From an uncultured Candidatus Saccharibacteria bacterium (GTDB lineage: Bacteria > Patescibacteriota > Minisyncoccia > Phycocordibacterales > EsbW-18), in the NCBI GenBank assembly GCA_964608145.1, contig CAZSMD010000001.1:1-57318 (forward strand): a stretch of 57,318 nucleotides of DNA. Direction: 5' to 3'. Below are positions 54,397 through 57,318 of the stretch, in pieces. The position numbers were made by a program, and so were the translations under genes. The notes beneath the pieces are model-generated. The model was not told where the DNA came from. It did no database searches and worked only from the letters and a program-made list of their open reading frames with translations. Numbering within the stretch: the stretch's first letter is position 1; each line of letters starts with the position of its first letter.

Positions 54397-54632
54397 AATT
54401 CAATCATGGGCGCTTCACGATAAAAGACAACCCCTGTTATCAACATAAAAAGATCAGGTACTTTGCCGGCTTCATGGGTCTTTCTGATTTTCAAAGCAAA
54501 ACGCCGCCCGGGTTTCCCCAGACGGCGTGCGTAGTTCTGCATGGTCGCGTGACCAGCCCCATGCTCATCCCAGGAACGATTTGCCGTGATGGTCCGGTTC
54601 AAATCGTTTTGTCCCGGGAAACCGAGATTCAC
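54351..54632 (-). CDS. hypothetical protein (93 aa)
   Basis: GTG start directly after the TAG of a 30-codon upstream mini-ORF. GGGAGGA lies 4 nt upstream. The 3' end overlaps the 7TM gene start by 46 nt. Confidence 0.4.
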   Translation of the reverse strand: MNLGFPGQNDLNRTITANRSWDEHGAGHATMQNYARRLGKPGRRFALKIRKTHEAGKVPDLFMLITGVVFYREAPMIELCWRRASTFSFHSLQ

Positions 54633-54754
54633 CTATCCTCCCGCAACACGTATCAGGTGCATTGGTCGGAATCGGATCGCCTTGTGGGCCTGCTCTCGGC
54701 TGTCGCAGGGAGTTTCCACCTCCATTTCTTTGCCGTAGGTTGTCGGATGCCCCC

Positions 54755-55012
54755 CTAGAAGGAGGAGCTGGCGAGGACGAAGGTCGCGGCCTGTCGCCGC
54801 GGGGTGATGAAGAGCTTCGCCAGGGCCGTCCTGATGCGGACGGGCTTGGCTCCCGTCGGCGCCCTCAGGCACCTGGAGCTGCGCCTTCCGCCCTTCTTCA
54901 GGTCGCAGGCCTCTGCGCAAAGCGCGTCGTAGTTCCGGTGACGCCGGCGTTCCTTCTCCCACCACCGTCGCTGCTTCTCCGCACGACGAGCCTTCTCCTG
55001 GAGCTTGTCCAT
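54755..55012 (-). CDS. hypothetical Arg-rich basic protein (85 aa) with extreme GC3
   Basis: AGGAGG 5 nt upstream of ATG: MDKLQEKARRAEKQRRWWEKERRRHRNYDALCAEACDLKKGGRR... About 74 of 85 third positions are G/C by my count. Consensus promoter upstream. Confidence 0.55.
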   Translation of the reverse strand: MDKLQEKARRAEKQRRWWEKERRRHRNYDALCAEACDLKKGGRRSSRCLRAPTGAKPVRIRTALAKLFITPRRQAATFVLASSSF

Positions 55013-55064
55013 CTCGTCCTCCTGGGCAATGAGGTCTTGAAACCTCGGTTCAGCTTCTGTTCCT

Positions 55065-55092
55065 ATTATAGCACCCCCAACCTATTTGTCAA
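55065..55092 (-). promoter_or_regulatory. consensus sigma70 promoter TTGACA-16-TATAAT
   Basis: Minus strand TTGACA (55087-55092) and TATAAT (55065-55070). Confidence 0.65.
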
Positions 55093-55157: not shown

Positions 55158-55219
55158 CGCGGAGCAGTGCCAACAGAAAAACACCCCCTTGGGGTGCTTT
55201 TCGTGCTGACTGCTCCGCG
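55158..55219 (-). terminator. nested hairpins: inner intrinsic terminator (55176-55202) enclosed by an 11-bp outer stem
   Basis: The inner hairpin on the minus strand is GAAAAGCACCCC AAG GGGGUGUUUUUC followed by a U-rich tail. The outer stem pairs CGCGGAGCAGT (55158-55168) with ACTGCTCCGCG (55209-55219). Confidence 0.55.
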
Positions 55220-55223
55220 GGTA
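55212..55223 (-). repeat. 12-nt direct copy of the tRNA-Asn 3' end
   Basis: GCTCCGCGGGTA also occurs at 55292-55303, the tRNA acceptor 3' strand. An inverted partial copy lies at 55158-55168. Confidence 0.8.
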
Positions 55224-55256
55224 AATACGTTTTCCCGTGTTCACTTCGGTATAAAT

Positions 55257-55286
55257 AAAAAAGCCCACAAGGGCTCTTTTATTTTT
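55257..55286. terminator. hairpin terminator immediately downstream of tRNA-Asn
   Basis: AAAAAAGCCC ACAA GGGCTCTTTTATTTTT. Confidence 0.65.
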
Positions 55287-55292
55287 CCTCAG

Positions 55293-55364
55293 CTCCGCGG
55301 GTAGGATTCGAACCTACGACCAACTCCTTAACAGGGAGTCGCTCTACCACTGAGCTACCGCGGA
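55293..55364 (-). tRNA. tRNA-Asn (anticodon GUU), no encoded CCA
   Basis: Minus strand UCCGCGGUAGCUCAGUGGUAGAGCGACUCCCUGUUAAGGAGUUGGUCGUAGGUUCGAAUCCUACCCGCGGAG. Anticodon loop CUGUUAA. Confidence 0.93.
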
Positions 55365-55525
55365 ATATTGTGTCGTGGACACATACCACTATTTCGAGGT
55401 GCTCATATCTGAGCTACTACGACAAGCGAGGATGAACGCGAAAGCCGTGCTTTCATGTTCTTCGAGCGCCGTCGGAGAAAGGCCGGCTCTCGCCGGACTT
55501 ACCGCGGAATATTGTGGTGCATCCG
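55365..55525 (-). ncRNA. hairpin-rich ~150-nt leader of tRNA-Asn containing partial copies of the tRNA 5' end and D arm
   Basis: The 17-mer TACCGCGGAATATTGTG occurs at 55356-55372 and 55500-55516. CTGAGCTAC occurs at 55350-55358 and 55409-55417. Hairpins at 55483-55496, 55458-55479, 55434-55460, 55401-55414 and 55370-55382. No ORF. Confidence 0.5.
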
Positions 55526-55531
55526 AGCAAA

Positions 55532-55560
55532 ATTATACACGGGGAGGTTTATAAAACAAC
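55532..55560 (-). promoter_or_regulatory. promoter with extended -10 (TGTATAAT) for the leader plus tRNA-Asn
   Basis: Minus strand TATAAT (55532-55537) preceded by TG. TTGTTT-like -35 lies 16 nt upstream. Confidence 0.5.
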
Positions 55561-55589
55561 CCTTAAAGAGACGCAAGACCTGACTACTT

Positions 55590-55624
55590 CCTCCTCTCTG
55601 CTACACTGTCCGCCAGAGAGGAGG
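55590..55624 (+). promoter_or_regulatory. 11-bp hairpin sequestering the Shine-Dalgarno of the downstream nuclease gene
   Basis: CCTCCTCTCTG (55590-55600) pairs perfectly with CAGAGAGGAGG (55614-55624). GGAGG at 55620-55624 is the only SD for the TTG start at 55634. Confidence 0.6.
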
Positions 55625-55633
55625 TGAAACGAC

Positions 55634-56359
55634 TTGGAGACCGAGTCACAAGAAAACATCGTCGTCGGAGACAAAACCACATTCGTCGGTCAGTTCTTCG
55701 AAGCGGTTGGGCATCACATTCTCGGCGGCGATTTGTCGCGTAACGAGAACGGAGATATCTGCCTCTGGCGAACCGAAACCGCAGTTGAGGTCAAGTCATC
55801 GGGCGTACAATCCTCGTACGGATTTCGCCTGAGCGTCGAGCAGATTGAGCATTACGAGCGTGTCAGCGTGTTCCCCTTCAGCCGTGCGTGGTACATGTTC
55901 TTTGCATATCGCAACCACTCACGAAAAAATGGGGGCGGTAAGCGTGCGAGCGAGCTCTCTCTGCATACGACTCCCGCGGCAATCAGAGCATACCTCGCAG
56001 ACGCCATAGTGTGGTGTCTCCTTGTTGACCTCTCCATCATCACGCGCTGGAGAGAGACAAGGCCGCATTCCACAAAGAGCATTCTGGGACACCTCGGAGC
56101 CGAAACGGTGGACCTCAAGTGTCCGTACGTGCACGAATTTGTGAACGGCGGGCTCGCCGACGGACTCAAAGGGCTCAACCTTGATCCCGCGTCGTACGGC
56201 ACGCTTTTCGGTAACGTGAAAGCCACTTTCCAACCTGATCTTTTCACAGAACATCTCGTGCACTTTCCCATGACGGCAGTCCTGCCGTCTTCAGAAATCC
56301 GTTCGGTTCAACGCATGCTGAGCCGGCGCGGATTTCGCCTCCGACAAGGAGTGCCCTGA
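55634..56359 (+). CDS. orphan PD-(D/E)XK (restriction-endonuclease-like) protein, 241 aa, TTG start
   Basis: FFEAVGHHILGG...NGDICLWRTETAVEVKSS has D-x(n)-E-x-K geometry. No adjacent methyltransferase. Own terminator. Confidence 0.6.
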   Translation: METESQENIVVGDKTTFVGQFFEAVGHHILGGDLSRNENGDICLWRTETAVEVKSSGVQSSYGFRLSVEQIEHYERVSVFPFSRAWYMFFAYRNHSRKNGGGKRASELSLHTTPAAIRAYLADAIVWCLLVDLSIITRWRETRPHSTKSILGHLGAETVDLKCPYVHEFVNGGLADGLKGLNLDPASYGTLFGNVKATFQPDLFTEHLVHFPMTAVLPSSEIRSVQRMLSRRGFRLRQGVP

Positions 56360-56360
56360 C

Positions 56361-56398
56361 CCGCCGCCTGTCCAGAGGACAGGGGGCGGTTTGTTTTT
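56361..56398 (+). terminator. intrinsic terminator after the nuclease gene
   Basis: CCGCCGCCTGTCC AGA GGACAGGGGGCGG followed by TTTGTTTTT. Confidence 0.75.
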
Positions 56399-56482: not shown

Positions 56483-56500
56483 TTGTGGCGCTGGTATACC

Positions 56501-57318
56501 ATGTACCCGATGCCGGAGGAAAAACACAAACCATTGCGTACACCGCCGCAGGATATCGAGGCAGAAAAAGCGCTTCTCGGTTCTATTTTGCTTCGTCCCG
56601 ATACTATTTTTGAAGTAGTTGATGTCGTTTCTGCCGACGCTTTCTACTCGCACAAACACCGCACCATCTGGGGCGCGATGTTTGATCTCTTCAAAAAAAG
56701 CGAGCCCATCGATCTCGTCTCGCTCTCATCACGCCTCAAGGAACTGAAAGAGCTCGAGCACGCGGGCGGCATGAGCTATCTCGCGTCGCTCGTCGATACC
56801 GTGCCGTCGTCAATGAACGCGAAACACTACGCGGAAATCGTCGCGCGCAAGTACACGATGCGCATGTTGATTGAGGCCGCGCATCACATCACCGAACTCG
56901 GCTACAGCGAGGAGCAGGAGCTCGACGAGCTCTTGGATTCCGCGGAAAAGAAAATTTACGAAATCACAAGCGCACCGGGAAATCAGAAATTCACGGCGCT
57001 CTCATACGTCCTCGGGGACGCCTTCGAGCGCCTCGACAAATTGCACAAATCGGGCGATGAATTGCGCGGCGTGCCGACCGGCTTCCCCGAACTTGATAAC
57101 AAGATTGCGGGACTTCAAAAATCCGACCTTATCATTCTCGCCGCACGTCCCTCGATGGGTAAAACATCGCTCGCGCTTGATATCGCACGCAACACGTCAA
57201 TCCGCCACGGCAAACATGTCGGCATCTTCTCGCTTGAAATGAGCGCGCAGCAGCTGGTTGACCGCATGCTCGCATCCGAAGCGCAGGTGGACGCATGGCG
57301 CCTCCGCACCGGAAAATT
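56501..57318 (+). CDS. dnaB: replicative DNA helicase, N-terminal ~270 codons; runs off the right edge and is absent from the ORF track
   Basis: Own translation: MYPMPEEKHKPLRTPPQDIEAEKALLGSILLRPD...GVPTGFPELDNKIAGLQKSDLIILAARPSMGKTSLALDIA...IFSLEMSAQQLVDRML. The start could instead be ATG 56510. Confidence 0.93.
   Translation, partial: MYPMPEEKHKPLRTPPQDIEAEKALLGSILLRPDTIFEVVDVVSADAFYSHKHRTIWGAMFDLFKKSEPIDLVSLSSRLKELKELEHAGGMSYLASLVDTVPSSMNAKHYAEIVARKYTMRMLIEAAHHITELGYSEEQELDELLDSAEKKIYEITSAPGNQKFTALSYVLGDAFERLDKLHKSGDELRGVPTGFPELDNKIAGLQKSDLIILAARPSMGKTSLALDIARNTSIRHGKHVGIFSLEMSAQQLVDRMLASEAQVDAWRLRTGK

What the first reader, a model, noticed from the sequence alone, without database searches (positions are those of the whole stretch)
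55561..56398. Orphan PD-(D/E)XK nuclease with TTG start and fully occluded Shine-Dalgarno, divergent from the tRNA-Asn leader
The 241-aa ORF has a restriction-endonuclease-like core (GDICLW...AVEVKSS, a D...E-x-K arrangement). There is no methyltransferase, specificity subunit or ATPase nearby. Its only SD (GGAGG, 55620-55624) lies inside a perfect 11-bp GC-rich stem (55590-55600 with 55614-55624). The start codon is TTG. The gene has its own strong terminator. Together these features give a very low basal translation rate, the pattern seen for toxic effectors (type I toxins, restriction enzymes, abortive-infection nucleases). The divergent promoter region overlaps the promoter of the structured tRNA-Asn leader, so the two units could be co-regulated. 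This is a candidate single-gene defence or toxin module, or the effector of an RNA-controlled system.
Basis: partly seen in the sequence, partly recalled or inferred. Interest (0 to 1): 0.7.

Follow-up and report, generated by a model that had tools for sequence, protein, structure and literature searches.

The report
Stand-alone nuclease gene with read-through lock
This is a real gene for a stand-alone DNA-cutting enzyme of a small, undescribed family found only in Parcubacteria (tiny uncultured bacteria), and the hairpin said to block its translation probably acts only on stray transcripts from upstream, because the gene's own promoter appears to sit inside the hairpin loop.

Summary
The sequence features are all present: a 241-aa ORF (55634-56359) with TTG as its only possible start, a perfect 11-bp inverted repeat covering the GGAGG, a strong terminator, and a divergent tRNA-Asn. 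The protein is a genuine PD-(D/E)XK enzyme. It has a confident AlphaFold model with the canonical core, and D41, E52, K54 and Q70 are conserved. It matches no Pfam, NCBIfam, PADLOC or PDB sequence. Foldseek gives only weak hits to EcoRV and HincII. The family is small and known only from Parcubacteria. No homologue was found in the phage, plasmid or viral collections. No DNA methyltransferase lies next to it in any locus examined.

The claim of a fully occluded SD is doubtful. All 10 distinct homologue loci have a -10 promoter element just upstream of the SD. In the window this element (TGcTACACT, 55599-55607) lies in the hairpin loop, so the gene's own mRNA should lack the anti-SD arm. The arm exists only in the four dnaB-linked loci. 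In three of them the gene follows a co-directional operon with no terminator found where scanned. This resembles IS10-type protection against read-through.

The family-wide sign of low expression is the weak start codon: 7 of 10 loci are non-ATG, against 8 of 110 neighbouring genes. No link to the tRNA leader was found. Whether the enzyme serves defence or repair is unresolved.

The parts
55580..55585 (+). -35-like hexamer CTGACT, 4 of 6 matches to TTGACA, 16 nt upstream of the -10 hexamer
   Evidence: Read from the sequence. It is weak and falls below the threshold of the consensus scan.
55590..55600 (+). 5' arm of the inverted repeat (CCTCCTCTCTG), the anti-SD. It lies in the promoter spacer, upstream of the predicted transcription start.
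   Evidence: Pyrimidine tracts occupy the same position in L010, L011 and L016 only.
55599..55607 (+). Extended -10 promoter element TGcTACACT, inside the hairpin loop. The predicted transcription start is at about 55613-55616.
   Evidence: A -10-like hexamer starts 22-35 nt before the start codon in all 10 distinct homologue loci. The chance rate is 5.7% per locus. TGsTACACT is the best-conserved intergenic block among the four close relatives.
55614..55624 (+). 3' arm of the inverted repeat (CAGAGAGGAGG), containing the Shine-Dalgarno AGGAGG at 55619-55624, 9 nt before the TTG
55631..55647 (+). 7-bp local hairpin (GACUUGG / CCGAGUC) that buries the TTG start codon. It is specific to the window lineage.
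   Evidence: Opening the start codon costs about 6 kcal/mol whatever the transcription start. Nine other loci give 0.0-1.8 kcal/mol, and 4.4 in L005.
55634..56359 (+). Coding sequence of a 241-aa stand-alone PD-(D/E)XK nuclease-fold protein with a TTG start. Catalytic candidates are E23 (55700-55702), D41 (55754-55756), E52 (55787-55789), K54 (55793-55795) and Q70 (55841-55843). Residues about 126-241 form a C-terminal domain with no structural relative found.
56361..56398 (+). Intrinsic terminator: a 12-pair stem with one internal mismatch (56361-56389), then UUUGUUUUU
   Evidence: -25.6 kcal/mol, z = -4.7. A comparable terminator follows the homologue in L010.

Best explanation
The ORF encodes a stand-alone, metal-dependent PD-(D/E)XK nuclease. 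The fold and the conserved motif are shown. The activity and the substrate are inferred. It belongs to a small, unannotated family known only from Parcubacteria (candidate phyla radiation). It has an N-terminal catalytic core (E23, D41, E52-x-K54, Q70) and a C-terminal domain of about 115 aa with no known relative. It is a resident chromosomal gene, not part of a restriction-modification pair, a known defence system or a mobile element.

Its expression is kept low and self-contained. It has its own extended -10 promoter a few bases upstream of a strong SD, a weak start codon (TTG here, non-ATG in 7 of 10 distinct loci) and its own terminator.

The 11-bp inverted repeat is most likely not a lock on the gene's own mRNA. 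The -10 element sits in the loop, so the native transcript should begin at about 55613-55616 and lack the 5' arm. Only transcripts entering from upstream would carry both arms and have the SD sequestered. This is the logic of IS10 'fold-back inhibition' against outside transcription. It fits a nuclease whose dose must be limited.

The biological role is unresolved. It could be a self-sparing restriction-type enzyme, for example one dependent on DNA modification, or a repair or recombination nuclease. I lean slightly towards the restriction-type reading because the gene is rare and patchy.
For: Fold and motif:
- The AlphaFold2 model has pLDDT 90.7 and pTM 0.88, with helix 11-30 followed by strands 33-37, 40-44 and 49-57, helix 68-77 and strand 84-92. 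This is the canonical PD-(D/E)XK core.
- D41, K54 and Q70 are invariant and E52 and E23 nearly so in 48 close homologues.
- E52, K54, Q70 and Y92 are invariant and D41 is at least 90% conserved in 51 sequences reaching down to about 17% identity.
- The best PDB fold hits are EcoRV (E = 4e-3, probability 0.95), HincII, Hjc and DpnI. Viral hits include an annotated endonuclease.

New, small family:
- No Pfam, PADLOC, NCBIfam or PDB sequence hit and no significant PHROGs hit.
- 49 clusters at 90% identity and 67 representatives among 1.84 billion.
- The only source names are Zambryskibacteria and Parcubacteria.

Resident gene:
- A loosely shared neighbourhood in the lineage: HPF-fmt-def in L001 and L013, VanY in L001, L011 and L012, tRNA-Asn in L010, L011, L013 and L016, and dnaB in L010, L011 and L016.
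- No homologue in the phage, plasmid or IMG/VR collections.

Promoter inside the hairpin:
- A -10 element lies at -35 to -22 from the start codon in 10 of 10 distinct loci, against 5.7% expected per locus.
- Extended -10 promoters with very short leaders or none are common in this window.
- Opening the SD costs 14.6 kcal/mol in long transcripts and 1.6-3.1 from the predicted start. In relatives the figures are 6.7-8.5 and 0.6-1.0.
- In L010, L011 and L016 the gene lies about 72 nt (45-72 nt by locus) after a co-directional Trx-DsbD-Redoxin operon. No terminator was detected in that gap in the two loci scanned, L010 and L011.

Weak start codons:
- 2 TTG, 5 GTG and 3 ATG in the family, against 102 ATG of 110 neighbouring genes (P about 1e-6).

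Precedent:
- IS10 sequesters its translation signals in a secondary structure (Davis, Simons and Kleckner 1985, cited in PMC13181058). The mechanistic detail is from my own knowledge.
Against: - No transcription start has been measured. The loop -10 (TACACT) matches the consensus at only 4 of 6 positions, the -35 is weak, and sigma-factor specificity in these bacteria is unknown.
- A TATAAA at 55550-55555 could start a transcript that contains the whole hairpin.
- The window has the strongest hairpin of the four loci although it has no upstream co-directional gene, and a bidirectional terminator at 55253-55284 blocks read-through. This is odd for a pure read-through insulator, unless the hairpin is a relic or an upstream promoter exists.
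- The hairpin shows no convincing covariation, and its 3' arm is constrained anyway because it is the SD.
- Fold similarity to known nucleases is weak (TM 0.33).
- Profile comparison with EcoRV is negative.
- Nuclease activity, substrate and role are untested.
Confidence: 0.55

Rival explanations
1. The gene's own mRNA starts upstream of 55590 and carries the full hairpin, so the SD is constitutively locked. The product is a toxic effector (single-gene defence, abortive infection or toxin) made only when something opens the hairpin.
For: The hairpin is perfect, strong and non-random. With a transcription start at about 55562, the probability that the SD is unpaired is about 4e-11. A possible upstream -10 (TATAAA) lies at 55550-55555. 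The window adds a TTG start and a start-codon hairpin. Weak start codons across the family fit a dose-sensitive product. The gene is rare and patchy, like accessory or defence genes. The window keeps the strongest hairpin even though read-through from upstream is blocked.
Against: The conserved -10 lies in the loop. Six of 10 distinct homologue loci have no anti-SD arm at all. No covariation supports the stem. There is no PADLOC hit, no defence-island neighbours and no mobile-element copy in the collections searched. The neighbourhood is largely shared within the lineage. The TATAAA lacks the conserved final T and has no TG or -35 element.
Confidence: 0.22
2. The protein is a housekeeping-type repair or recombination nuclease specific to this lineage, for example a Holliday-junction resolvase or a mismatch- or structure-specific enzyme like Hjc, RecU, MutH or Vsr. 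The hairpin is incidental or only an insulator.
For: The gene is solitary with no methyltransferase, sits in a largely shared chromosomal neighbourhood next to dnaB in close relatives and has moderately high sequence conservation across its whole length (mean column identity 49%). Hjc resolvases are among the fold hits. The Q-x-x-x-[Y/H/F] motif after ExK recalls RecB, Cas4 and lambda-Exo type nucleases. That resemblance is from memory and is a lead, not a test.
Against: Only 67 representatives at 50% identity in 1.84 billion proteins, and one hit among 185,579 species genomes with a pattern scan of limited sensitivity. A core repair gene of Parcubacteria would be far commoner. The best fold hits are restriction enzymes, not resolvases. 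The context changes outside the close clade.
Confidence: 0.25
3. The inverted repeat works at the DNA level, as an operator for a dimeric repressor that brackets the -10 element. The complementarity to the SD is a by-product.
For: The two arms flank the -10 hexamer symmetrically at 55590-55600 and 55614-55624, around 55602-55607.
Against: In L010, L011 and L016 the DNA-level symmetry falls to about 6 bp, while RNA-level pairing persists partly through G-U pairs. No regulator gene is adjacent. The 3' arm is explained by the SD itself.
Confidence: 0.08
4. The enzyme is the endonuclease of a classical type II restriction-modification system whose methyltransferase is encoded elsewhere in the genome.
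For: The best structural hits are EcoRV and HincII at similar length. GATC and GGCC are under-represented in the window, at 89 against 210 and 123 against 193 expected.
Against: No adjacent methyltransferase in 10 distinct loci and none by motif in 57 kb. Profile comparison with EcoRV is negative and TM is only 0.33. GATC depletion does not track the gene: it is absent in L013 and weak in L014 and L001. No palindrome is specifically missing beyond the CTAG-containing ones, which are rare in most genomes.
Confidence: 0.05

Closest known systems
PD-(D/E)XK (restriction-endonuclease-like) nuclease superfamily
   Same: Canonical alpha-beta-beta-beta-alpha-beta core in a confident model. An acidic residue sits at the start of strand 2 (D41), E52-x-K54 lies in strand 3, and a glutamate sits on the first helix (E23). 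All are conserved across the family.
   Different: No sequence model of any known family detects it. The C-terminal domain of about 115 residues has no structural relative in the PDB.
EcoRV / HincII type IIP restriction endonucleases
   Same: Best Foldseek hits (E = 4e-3, probability 0.95, about 200 aligned columns), similar length of about 245 aa, and the same order of catalytic elements.
   Different: TM-score is only 0.33. Profile comparison (hhalign) of the family against EcoRV gives 0.15% probability. There is no cognate methyltransferase in any locus.
Solitary methyl-directed or repair PD-(D/E)XK enzymes (DpnI, MutH, Vsr, Hjc, RecU)
   Same: A single gene with no methyltransferase partner. 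An N-terminal catalytic domain plus an extra C-terminal domain, as in DpnI. DpnI and Hjc appear among the weak fold hits.
   Different: The hits are marginal (E = 0.4-0.7). The C-terminal domain did not match the DpnI winged helix or anything else. There is no sequence similarity.
IS10 / IS50 'fold-back inhibition' (protection of a transposase gene from outside transcription)
   Same: A sequence upstream of the gene's own transcription start is complementary to its ribosome-binding site, so only read-through transcripts sequester the SD. This is computed here. Three relatives have a co-directional upstream operon, and no terminator was detected in the two scanned. The precedent is Davis et al. 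1985, cited in PMC13181058, plus my own knowledge.
   Different: The gene is a chromosomal nuclease gene, not a transposase in an insertion sequence. The transcription start is predicted, not mapped. In the window itself no upstream co-directional gene remains.
IS200 tnpA 5'UTR stem-loop that sequesters the SD within the gene's own mRNA
   Different: In IS200 the whole stem-loop lies in the native 5'UTR. Here the conserved -10 lies between the arms.

Membership tests
PD-(D/E)XK nuclease superfamily | Alpha-beta-beta-beta-alpha-beta core fold | tested here: met
   AlphaFold2 model with pLDDT 90.7 and pTM 0.88. Helix 11-30, strands 33-37, 40-44 and 49-57, helix 68-77, strand 84-92. Foldseek hits are restriction enzymes, Hjc and DpnI.
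PD-(D/E)XK nuclease superfamily | Conserved D ... (D/E)-x-K catalytic motif on strands 2 and 3 | tested here: met
   D41, E52 and K54 are invariant or nearly so in 48 close and 51 broad homologues.
PD-(D/E)XK nuclease superfamily | Metal-dependent phosphodiester cleavage | not testable with these tools
   Needs purified protein and D41A, E52A and K54A mutants.
EcoRV-like type IIP restriction endonuclease | Detectable sequence or profile homology to EcoRV | tested here: not met
   hhalign of alignment A3 against EcoRV gives probability 0.15%. The EcoRV sequence was verified against 1eo3_A.
EcoRV-like type IIP restriction endonuclease | Global structural superposition (TM at least about 0.5) | tested here: not met
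   Best TM-score 0.33, rmsd 8.6 angstroms.
Type II restriction-modification system | Adjacent cognate DNA methyltransferase | tested here: not met
   None next to the gene in 10 distinct loci. No amino- or C5-methyltransferase motif in a real gene in the 57-kb window.
Known anti-phage defence systems (PADLOC-DB 2.0) | Match to a defence-protein model | tested here: not met
   0 families at E up to 10.
Known anti-phage defence systems (PADLOC-DB 2.0) | Defence-island or mobile-element context | tested here: not met
   Neighbours are housekeeping or stress genes. No copy in the phage, plasmid or IMG/VR collections. The neighbourhood is largely shared within the lineage.
Type I toxin-antitoxin | Small (under about 60 aa) hydrophobic toxin with an overlapping antisense RNA | tested here: not met
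   The product is a 241-aa soluble enzyme fold. No antisense RNA gene was identified, and Rfam gives nothing.
RecB / Cas4 / lambda-Exo branch of PD-(D/E)XK | Q-x-x-x-Y motif after ExK, and a match to PDDEXK_1, Cas4 or YqaJ models | tested here: inconclusive
   Q70 is invariant and position 74 is Y, H or F in most members, but there is no Pfam match. The motif definition is from memory.
IS10-type fold-back inhibition (mechanism, not a family) | A segment complementary to the ribosome-binding site lies upstream of the native transcription start | tested here: inconclusive
   Complementarity and energetics are shown. The transcription start is inferred only from a conserved -10 in the loop and has not been measured.
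IS10-type fold-back inhibition (mechanism, not a family) | A source of read-through transcription from upstream | tested here: inconclusive
   Present in L010, L011 and L016: a co-directional operon about 72 nt upstream (45-72 nt by locus), with no terminator detected in L010 and L011. Absent in the window: the upstream gene is a divergent tRNA and a terminator lies at 55253-55284.

The most novel reading that the evidence does not exclude
The family is a new single-gene, methyltransferase-independent restriction-type defence nuclease specific to candidate-phyla-radiation bacteria, for example one that cuts modified or otherwise foreign DNA. Its dose is held down by weak start codons across the family. 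In one clade there is also a hairpin with the promoter embedded in it, which silences every transcript except the one from the gene's own promoter.
Probability: 0.2. Interest if true: 0.6.

Novelty: new member of a known kind. Interest (0 to 1): 0.35.

Why it matters
Parcubacteria have tiny genomes, and much of their gene content is unannotated. This work puts a fold and a probable catalytic site on one such family of hypothetical proteins.

It also shows how a plausible-looking 'locked ribosome-binding site' can be misread when the promoter lies inside the hairpin.

If the enzyme proves to be a solitary restriction-type nuclease, it would add a compact defence or restriction activity from a poorly sampled lineage. 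If the hairpin proves to be a read-through insulator, it would extend a mechanism known from insertion sequences to an ordinary chromosomal gene.

Neither outcome would overturn current understanding.

Tried and rejected
- Sequence-model searches with the single protein, 48 homologues and 10 distant homologues against Pfam, NCBIfam, PADLOC and PHROGs found nothing significant.
- PDB sequence searches with the single protein and with two profiles found nothing meaningful.
- hhalign of the family profile against EcoRV was negative.
- A separate model of the C-terminal half (pLDDT 90.6) was searched against the PDB and gave only noise.
- tblastn against the phage and plasmid collections and a pattern scan of IMG/VR found no homologue.
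- Pattern scans of species genomes and metagenome contigs gave only 1 and 3 loci. A first attempt with the broad alignment failed for lack of a conserved stretch.
- The second profile search of the 5.8-billion-protein set added no new annotated members.
- Palindrome avoidance as a proxy for restriction specificity was inconclusive. GATC and GGCC are depleted, but not consistently across loci that carry the gene.
- RNAalifold on the four anti-SD loci gave a weak consensus (-4 kcal/mol) and no real covariation.
- Strain-level copies are identical in the hairpin and so say nothing about covariation.
- Rfam found nothing in the region except the tRNA.
- Literature searches found nothing on this family.
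- I considered a homing-endonuclease link to the tRNA-Asn intron seen in L011 and rejected it. The nuclease gene lies about 3 kb away there, and most loci lack the tRNA.
- I considered an independent association with tRNA-Asn, because L013 has the tRNA 285 nt downstream. It is better explained by gene order shared within the lineage.
Full report
OBSERVATION

- The ORF at 55634-56359 (+) encodes 241 aa. TTG is its only possible start, because an in-frame TGA lies at 55625-55627 and no other start codon precedes the conserved N-terminus.
- The inverted repeat CCTCCTCTCTG (55590-55600) / CAGAGAGGAGG (55614-55624) is perfect, has a 13-nt loop and contains the GGAGG.
- As RNA it folds at -19.5 kcal/mol with z = -4.2, and none of 200 shuffles does as well.
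- Perfect hairpins of 11 bp or more occur at about 13 places in the window, against 0.43 hits expected. Most of the others look like terminators.
- A strong terminator (56361-56389, -25.6 kcal/mol, then UUUGUUUUU) follows the gene.
- tRNA-Asn(GTT) lies at 55292-55364 on the other strand.
- Four further assemblies from other samples carry the same junction at 99% identity, so it is not a mis-assembly.

THE PROTEIN

No Pfam, NCBIfam, PADLOC or PDB sequence model matches it. This holds for the single sequence, for 48 homologues scanned one by one, and for profiles. PHROGs gave only one insignificant hit at E = 0.24.

It has 49 relatives at 42-70% identity among 5.8 billion clusters. It has 67 representatives at E below 1e-3 among 1.84 billion proteins scored exhaustively. 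The only names attached are 'hypothetical protein' from Candidatus Zambryskibacteria and the Parcubacteria group.

The alignment of close relatives has D41, K54, R65, Q70, Y87, Y92, N94, S149 and G155 invariant, and E23 and E52 nearly so. In a broad alignment reaching about 17% identity, E52, K54, Q70 and Y92 stay invariant and D41 and D132 are at least 90% conserved.

The AlphaFold2 model is confident (pLDDT 90.7, pTM 0.88). It shows the canonical core: helix 11-30 carrying E23, strands 33-37, 40-44 (D41 at its start) and 49-57 (E52-x-K54), helix 68-77 (Q70) and strand 84-92.

Foldseek against the PDB returns EcoRV first (E = 4e-3, probability 0.95), then HincII, Hjc resolvases and DpnI. TM-scores are only about 0.3. 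Viral models give weak endonuclease hits.

A profile comparison with EcoRV is negative at 0.15%. I verified my copy of the EcoRV sequence against 1eo3_A first. The C-terminal half, modelled alone at pLDDT 90.6, has no structural relative.

The nuclease-fold reading is therefore supported and the catalytic motif is complete. The protein is not a member of any described family.

CONTEXT

No methyltransferase, specificity subunit or partner ATPase lies next to the gene in the window or in the nine other distinct homologue loci. No DNA-methyltransferase motif occurs in a real gene in the 57-kb window.

The closest relatives (L010, L011, L016) share the downstream dnaB. More distant ones share parts of the same neighbourhood: HPF-fmt-def in L001 and L013, VanY in L001, L011 and L012. 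Others (L004, L005, L014) sit elsewhere.

There is no copy in the phage, plasmid or IMG/VR collections. The gene is thus rare and patchy overall. Where it occurs in this lineage it is a resident chromosomal gene, not a cargo of mobile elements.

THE tRNA-Asn ADJACENCY IS LINEAGE-SPECIFIC

In L010, L011 and L016 a Trx-DsbD-Redoxin operon of about 2.5 kb lies between tRNA-Asn and the nuclease gene. That operon is absent from the window.

The conserved 'leader' upstream of tRNA-Asn is present in L011 and L016, about 2.5-3 kb from the nuclease gene. It is absent from L010, which still has the nuclease. Five other loci have no tRNA within 6 kb, or within the shorter flanks available for L014.

The minus-strand -10 for the tRNA (55532-55537, conserved in L010 and L011) and the plus-strand -10 (55602-55607) are 65 bp apart. 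I find no support for a functional link between the nuclease and the tRNA leader.

THE HAIRPIN

When the upstream regions of all distinct homologue loci are lined up at the start codon, each has a -10 element whose hexamer starts 22-35 nt before the start codon, just upstream of the SD:
- TGgTACACT or TGcTACACT in the four close loci
- TATAAT in L014 and L012
- TGgTAGAAT in L001
- TGcTAGAAT in L013
- TGtTATACT and TGgTATACT in L004 and L005

The chance rate for such a hit is 5.7% per locus. Extended -10 promoters with very short leaders or none are common elsewhere in the window.

In the window this element (55599-55607) lies in the loop of the hairpin, with a weak -35 (CTGACT) 16 nt upstream. 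The predicted transcription start, about 55613-55616, falls at the beginning of the 3' arm. The gene's own mRNA should therefore lack the anti-SD arm.

The computed cost of opening the SD is 14.6 kcal/mol for transcripts that start upstream. It is only 1.6-3.1 kcal/mol for transcripts that start at 55612-55616.

The anti-SD pyrimidine tract exists only in the four dnaB-linked loci. Hairpin energies there are -19.5, -18.9, -13.1 and -11.4 kcal/mol. The other six loci lack it. RNAalifold finds only a weak 7-pair consensus and no real covariation.

In three of the four loci the gene lies about 72 nt (45-72 nt by locus) after the co-directional Redoxin gene. No terminator was detected in that gap in the two loci scanned, L010 and L011. 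Read-through transcripts would carry both arms, with opening costs of 6.7-8.5 kcal/mol against 0.6-1.0 for short transcripts.

This is the architecture of IS10 and IS50 'fold-back inhibition'. There, only transcripts that enter from outside sequester the transposase ribosome-binding site (Davis et al. 1985, cited in PMC13181058; the mechanistic detail is from my own knowledge). It contrasts with IS200, where the stem-loop lies in the native 5'UTR (PMC4513863).

The weak point is the window itself. It has the best hairpin but no upstream co-directional gene, and a bidirectional terminator at 55253-55284. Either the hairpin is a relic, or a second upstream promoter exists, perhaps the TATAAA at 55550-55555. 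Only 5'-end mapping can settle this.

LOW EXPRESSION

In 10 distinct loci the family starts with TTG twice, GTG five times and ATG three times. These assignments are essentially unambiguous. Of 110 neighbouring called genes, 102 start with ATG. That gives P of about 1e-6, or roughly 1e-4 by my own estimate if the dnaB clade is collapsed to one observation.

The window adds a 7-bp hairpin over the TTG itself (55631-55647), which costs about 6 kcal/mol to open. This hairpin is not conserved.

ROLE

The role remains open.
- A classical restriction enzyme is unlikely. There is no methyltransferase, and no palindrome is specifically absent. GATC depletion (89 against 210 expected) does not track the gene.
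- A core repair enzyme is unlikely given its rarity.
- A solitary, self-sparing restriction-type nuclease and a lineage-specific repair or recombination nuclease both fit. I lean slightly to the former.

VERDICT

This is a new family within a very large and well-known superfamily, with a neat but unproven regulatory twist. Interest is moderate to low (0.35). Novelty: new member of a known kind.

Noticed in passing
window 55365-55530 (minus strand); L011 2801-2968; L016 272-438: The region upstream of tRNA-Asn is a conserved, structured segment of about 144 nt bracketed by a perfect 17-nt direct repeat, TACCGCGGAATATTGTG (55356-55372 and 55500-55516). The repeat includes the first bases of the tRNA. 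The segment is 77-79% identical in L011 and L016 and absent in L010. The consensus fold is -52.8 kcal/mol with 6 pairs showing compensatory changes, and it contains a D-arm-like GTAGCTCAGATATGAGCAC. There is no Rfam match.
   Followed up: partly
L011 2575-2775 and 3041-3382: In this relative the tRNA-Asn gene is split by about 200 nt inserted at the anticodon loop, and ARAGORN no longer finds the tRNA. This is probably a group I intron in tRNA-Asn. A 113-aa ORF that looks like an HNH endonuclease by its cysteine and histidine motifs lies about 270 nt away. No Pfam match is on record for it.
   Followed up: no
window 54560-55092 (minus strand): A perfect sigma-70 consensus promoter (TTGACA-16-TATAAT with TG, 55092..55065) precedes an unusually GC-rich stretch (64% against about 52% for the window). 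The stretch holds an 85-aa highly basic ORF (55012-54755) with no Pfam hit and no Rfam hit. The RNA fold z-score is -2.5. It is unclear whether this is a small protein gene or a structured RNA.
   Followed up: partly
whole window: GATC (89 observed, 210 expected, z = -8.3) and GGCC (123 against 193, z = -5.0) are strongly under-represented. GATC is also depleted in L010, L011, L016 and L005, but not in L013 and only weakly in L014 and L001.
   Followed up: partly
window, e.g. upstream of 24892, 27127, 42793 (minus-strand genes) and 56492-56512: Many genes have an extended -10 element (TGnTAnAnT) only 5-10 nt before the start codon and no SD, which suggests widespread leaderless or very short-leader mRNAs. 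For dnaB, TGgTATACC (56492-56500) abuts the first ATG (56501) and lies 9 nt before a second ATG (56510).
   Followed up: no
window 55212-55223 and 55292-55303; 55253-55284: The last 12 nt of the tRNA-Asn gene (GCTCCGCGGGTA on the plus strand) are repeated 80 nt beyond the tRNA 3' end, on the far side of a bidirectional terminator. The arrangement is conserved in L011, so it is not a recent integration scar.
   Followed up: no
window 55540-55633 versus L010 3314-6000, L011 2977-5973: Relatives carry a Trx-DsbD-Redoxin operon (plus the HNH-like ORF in L011) between tRNA-Asn and the nuclease gene. The window lacks it, and its 55540-55589 segment has no counterpart in the relatives. Whether this is a deletion or an insertion is undetermined.
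   Followed up: partly
P0060 (375 aa): One family member carries an extra N-terminal region of about 157 aa with no Pfam match. It may be a fusion or a miscalled start.
   Followed up: no
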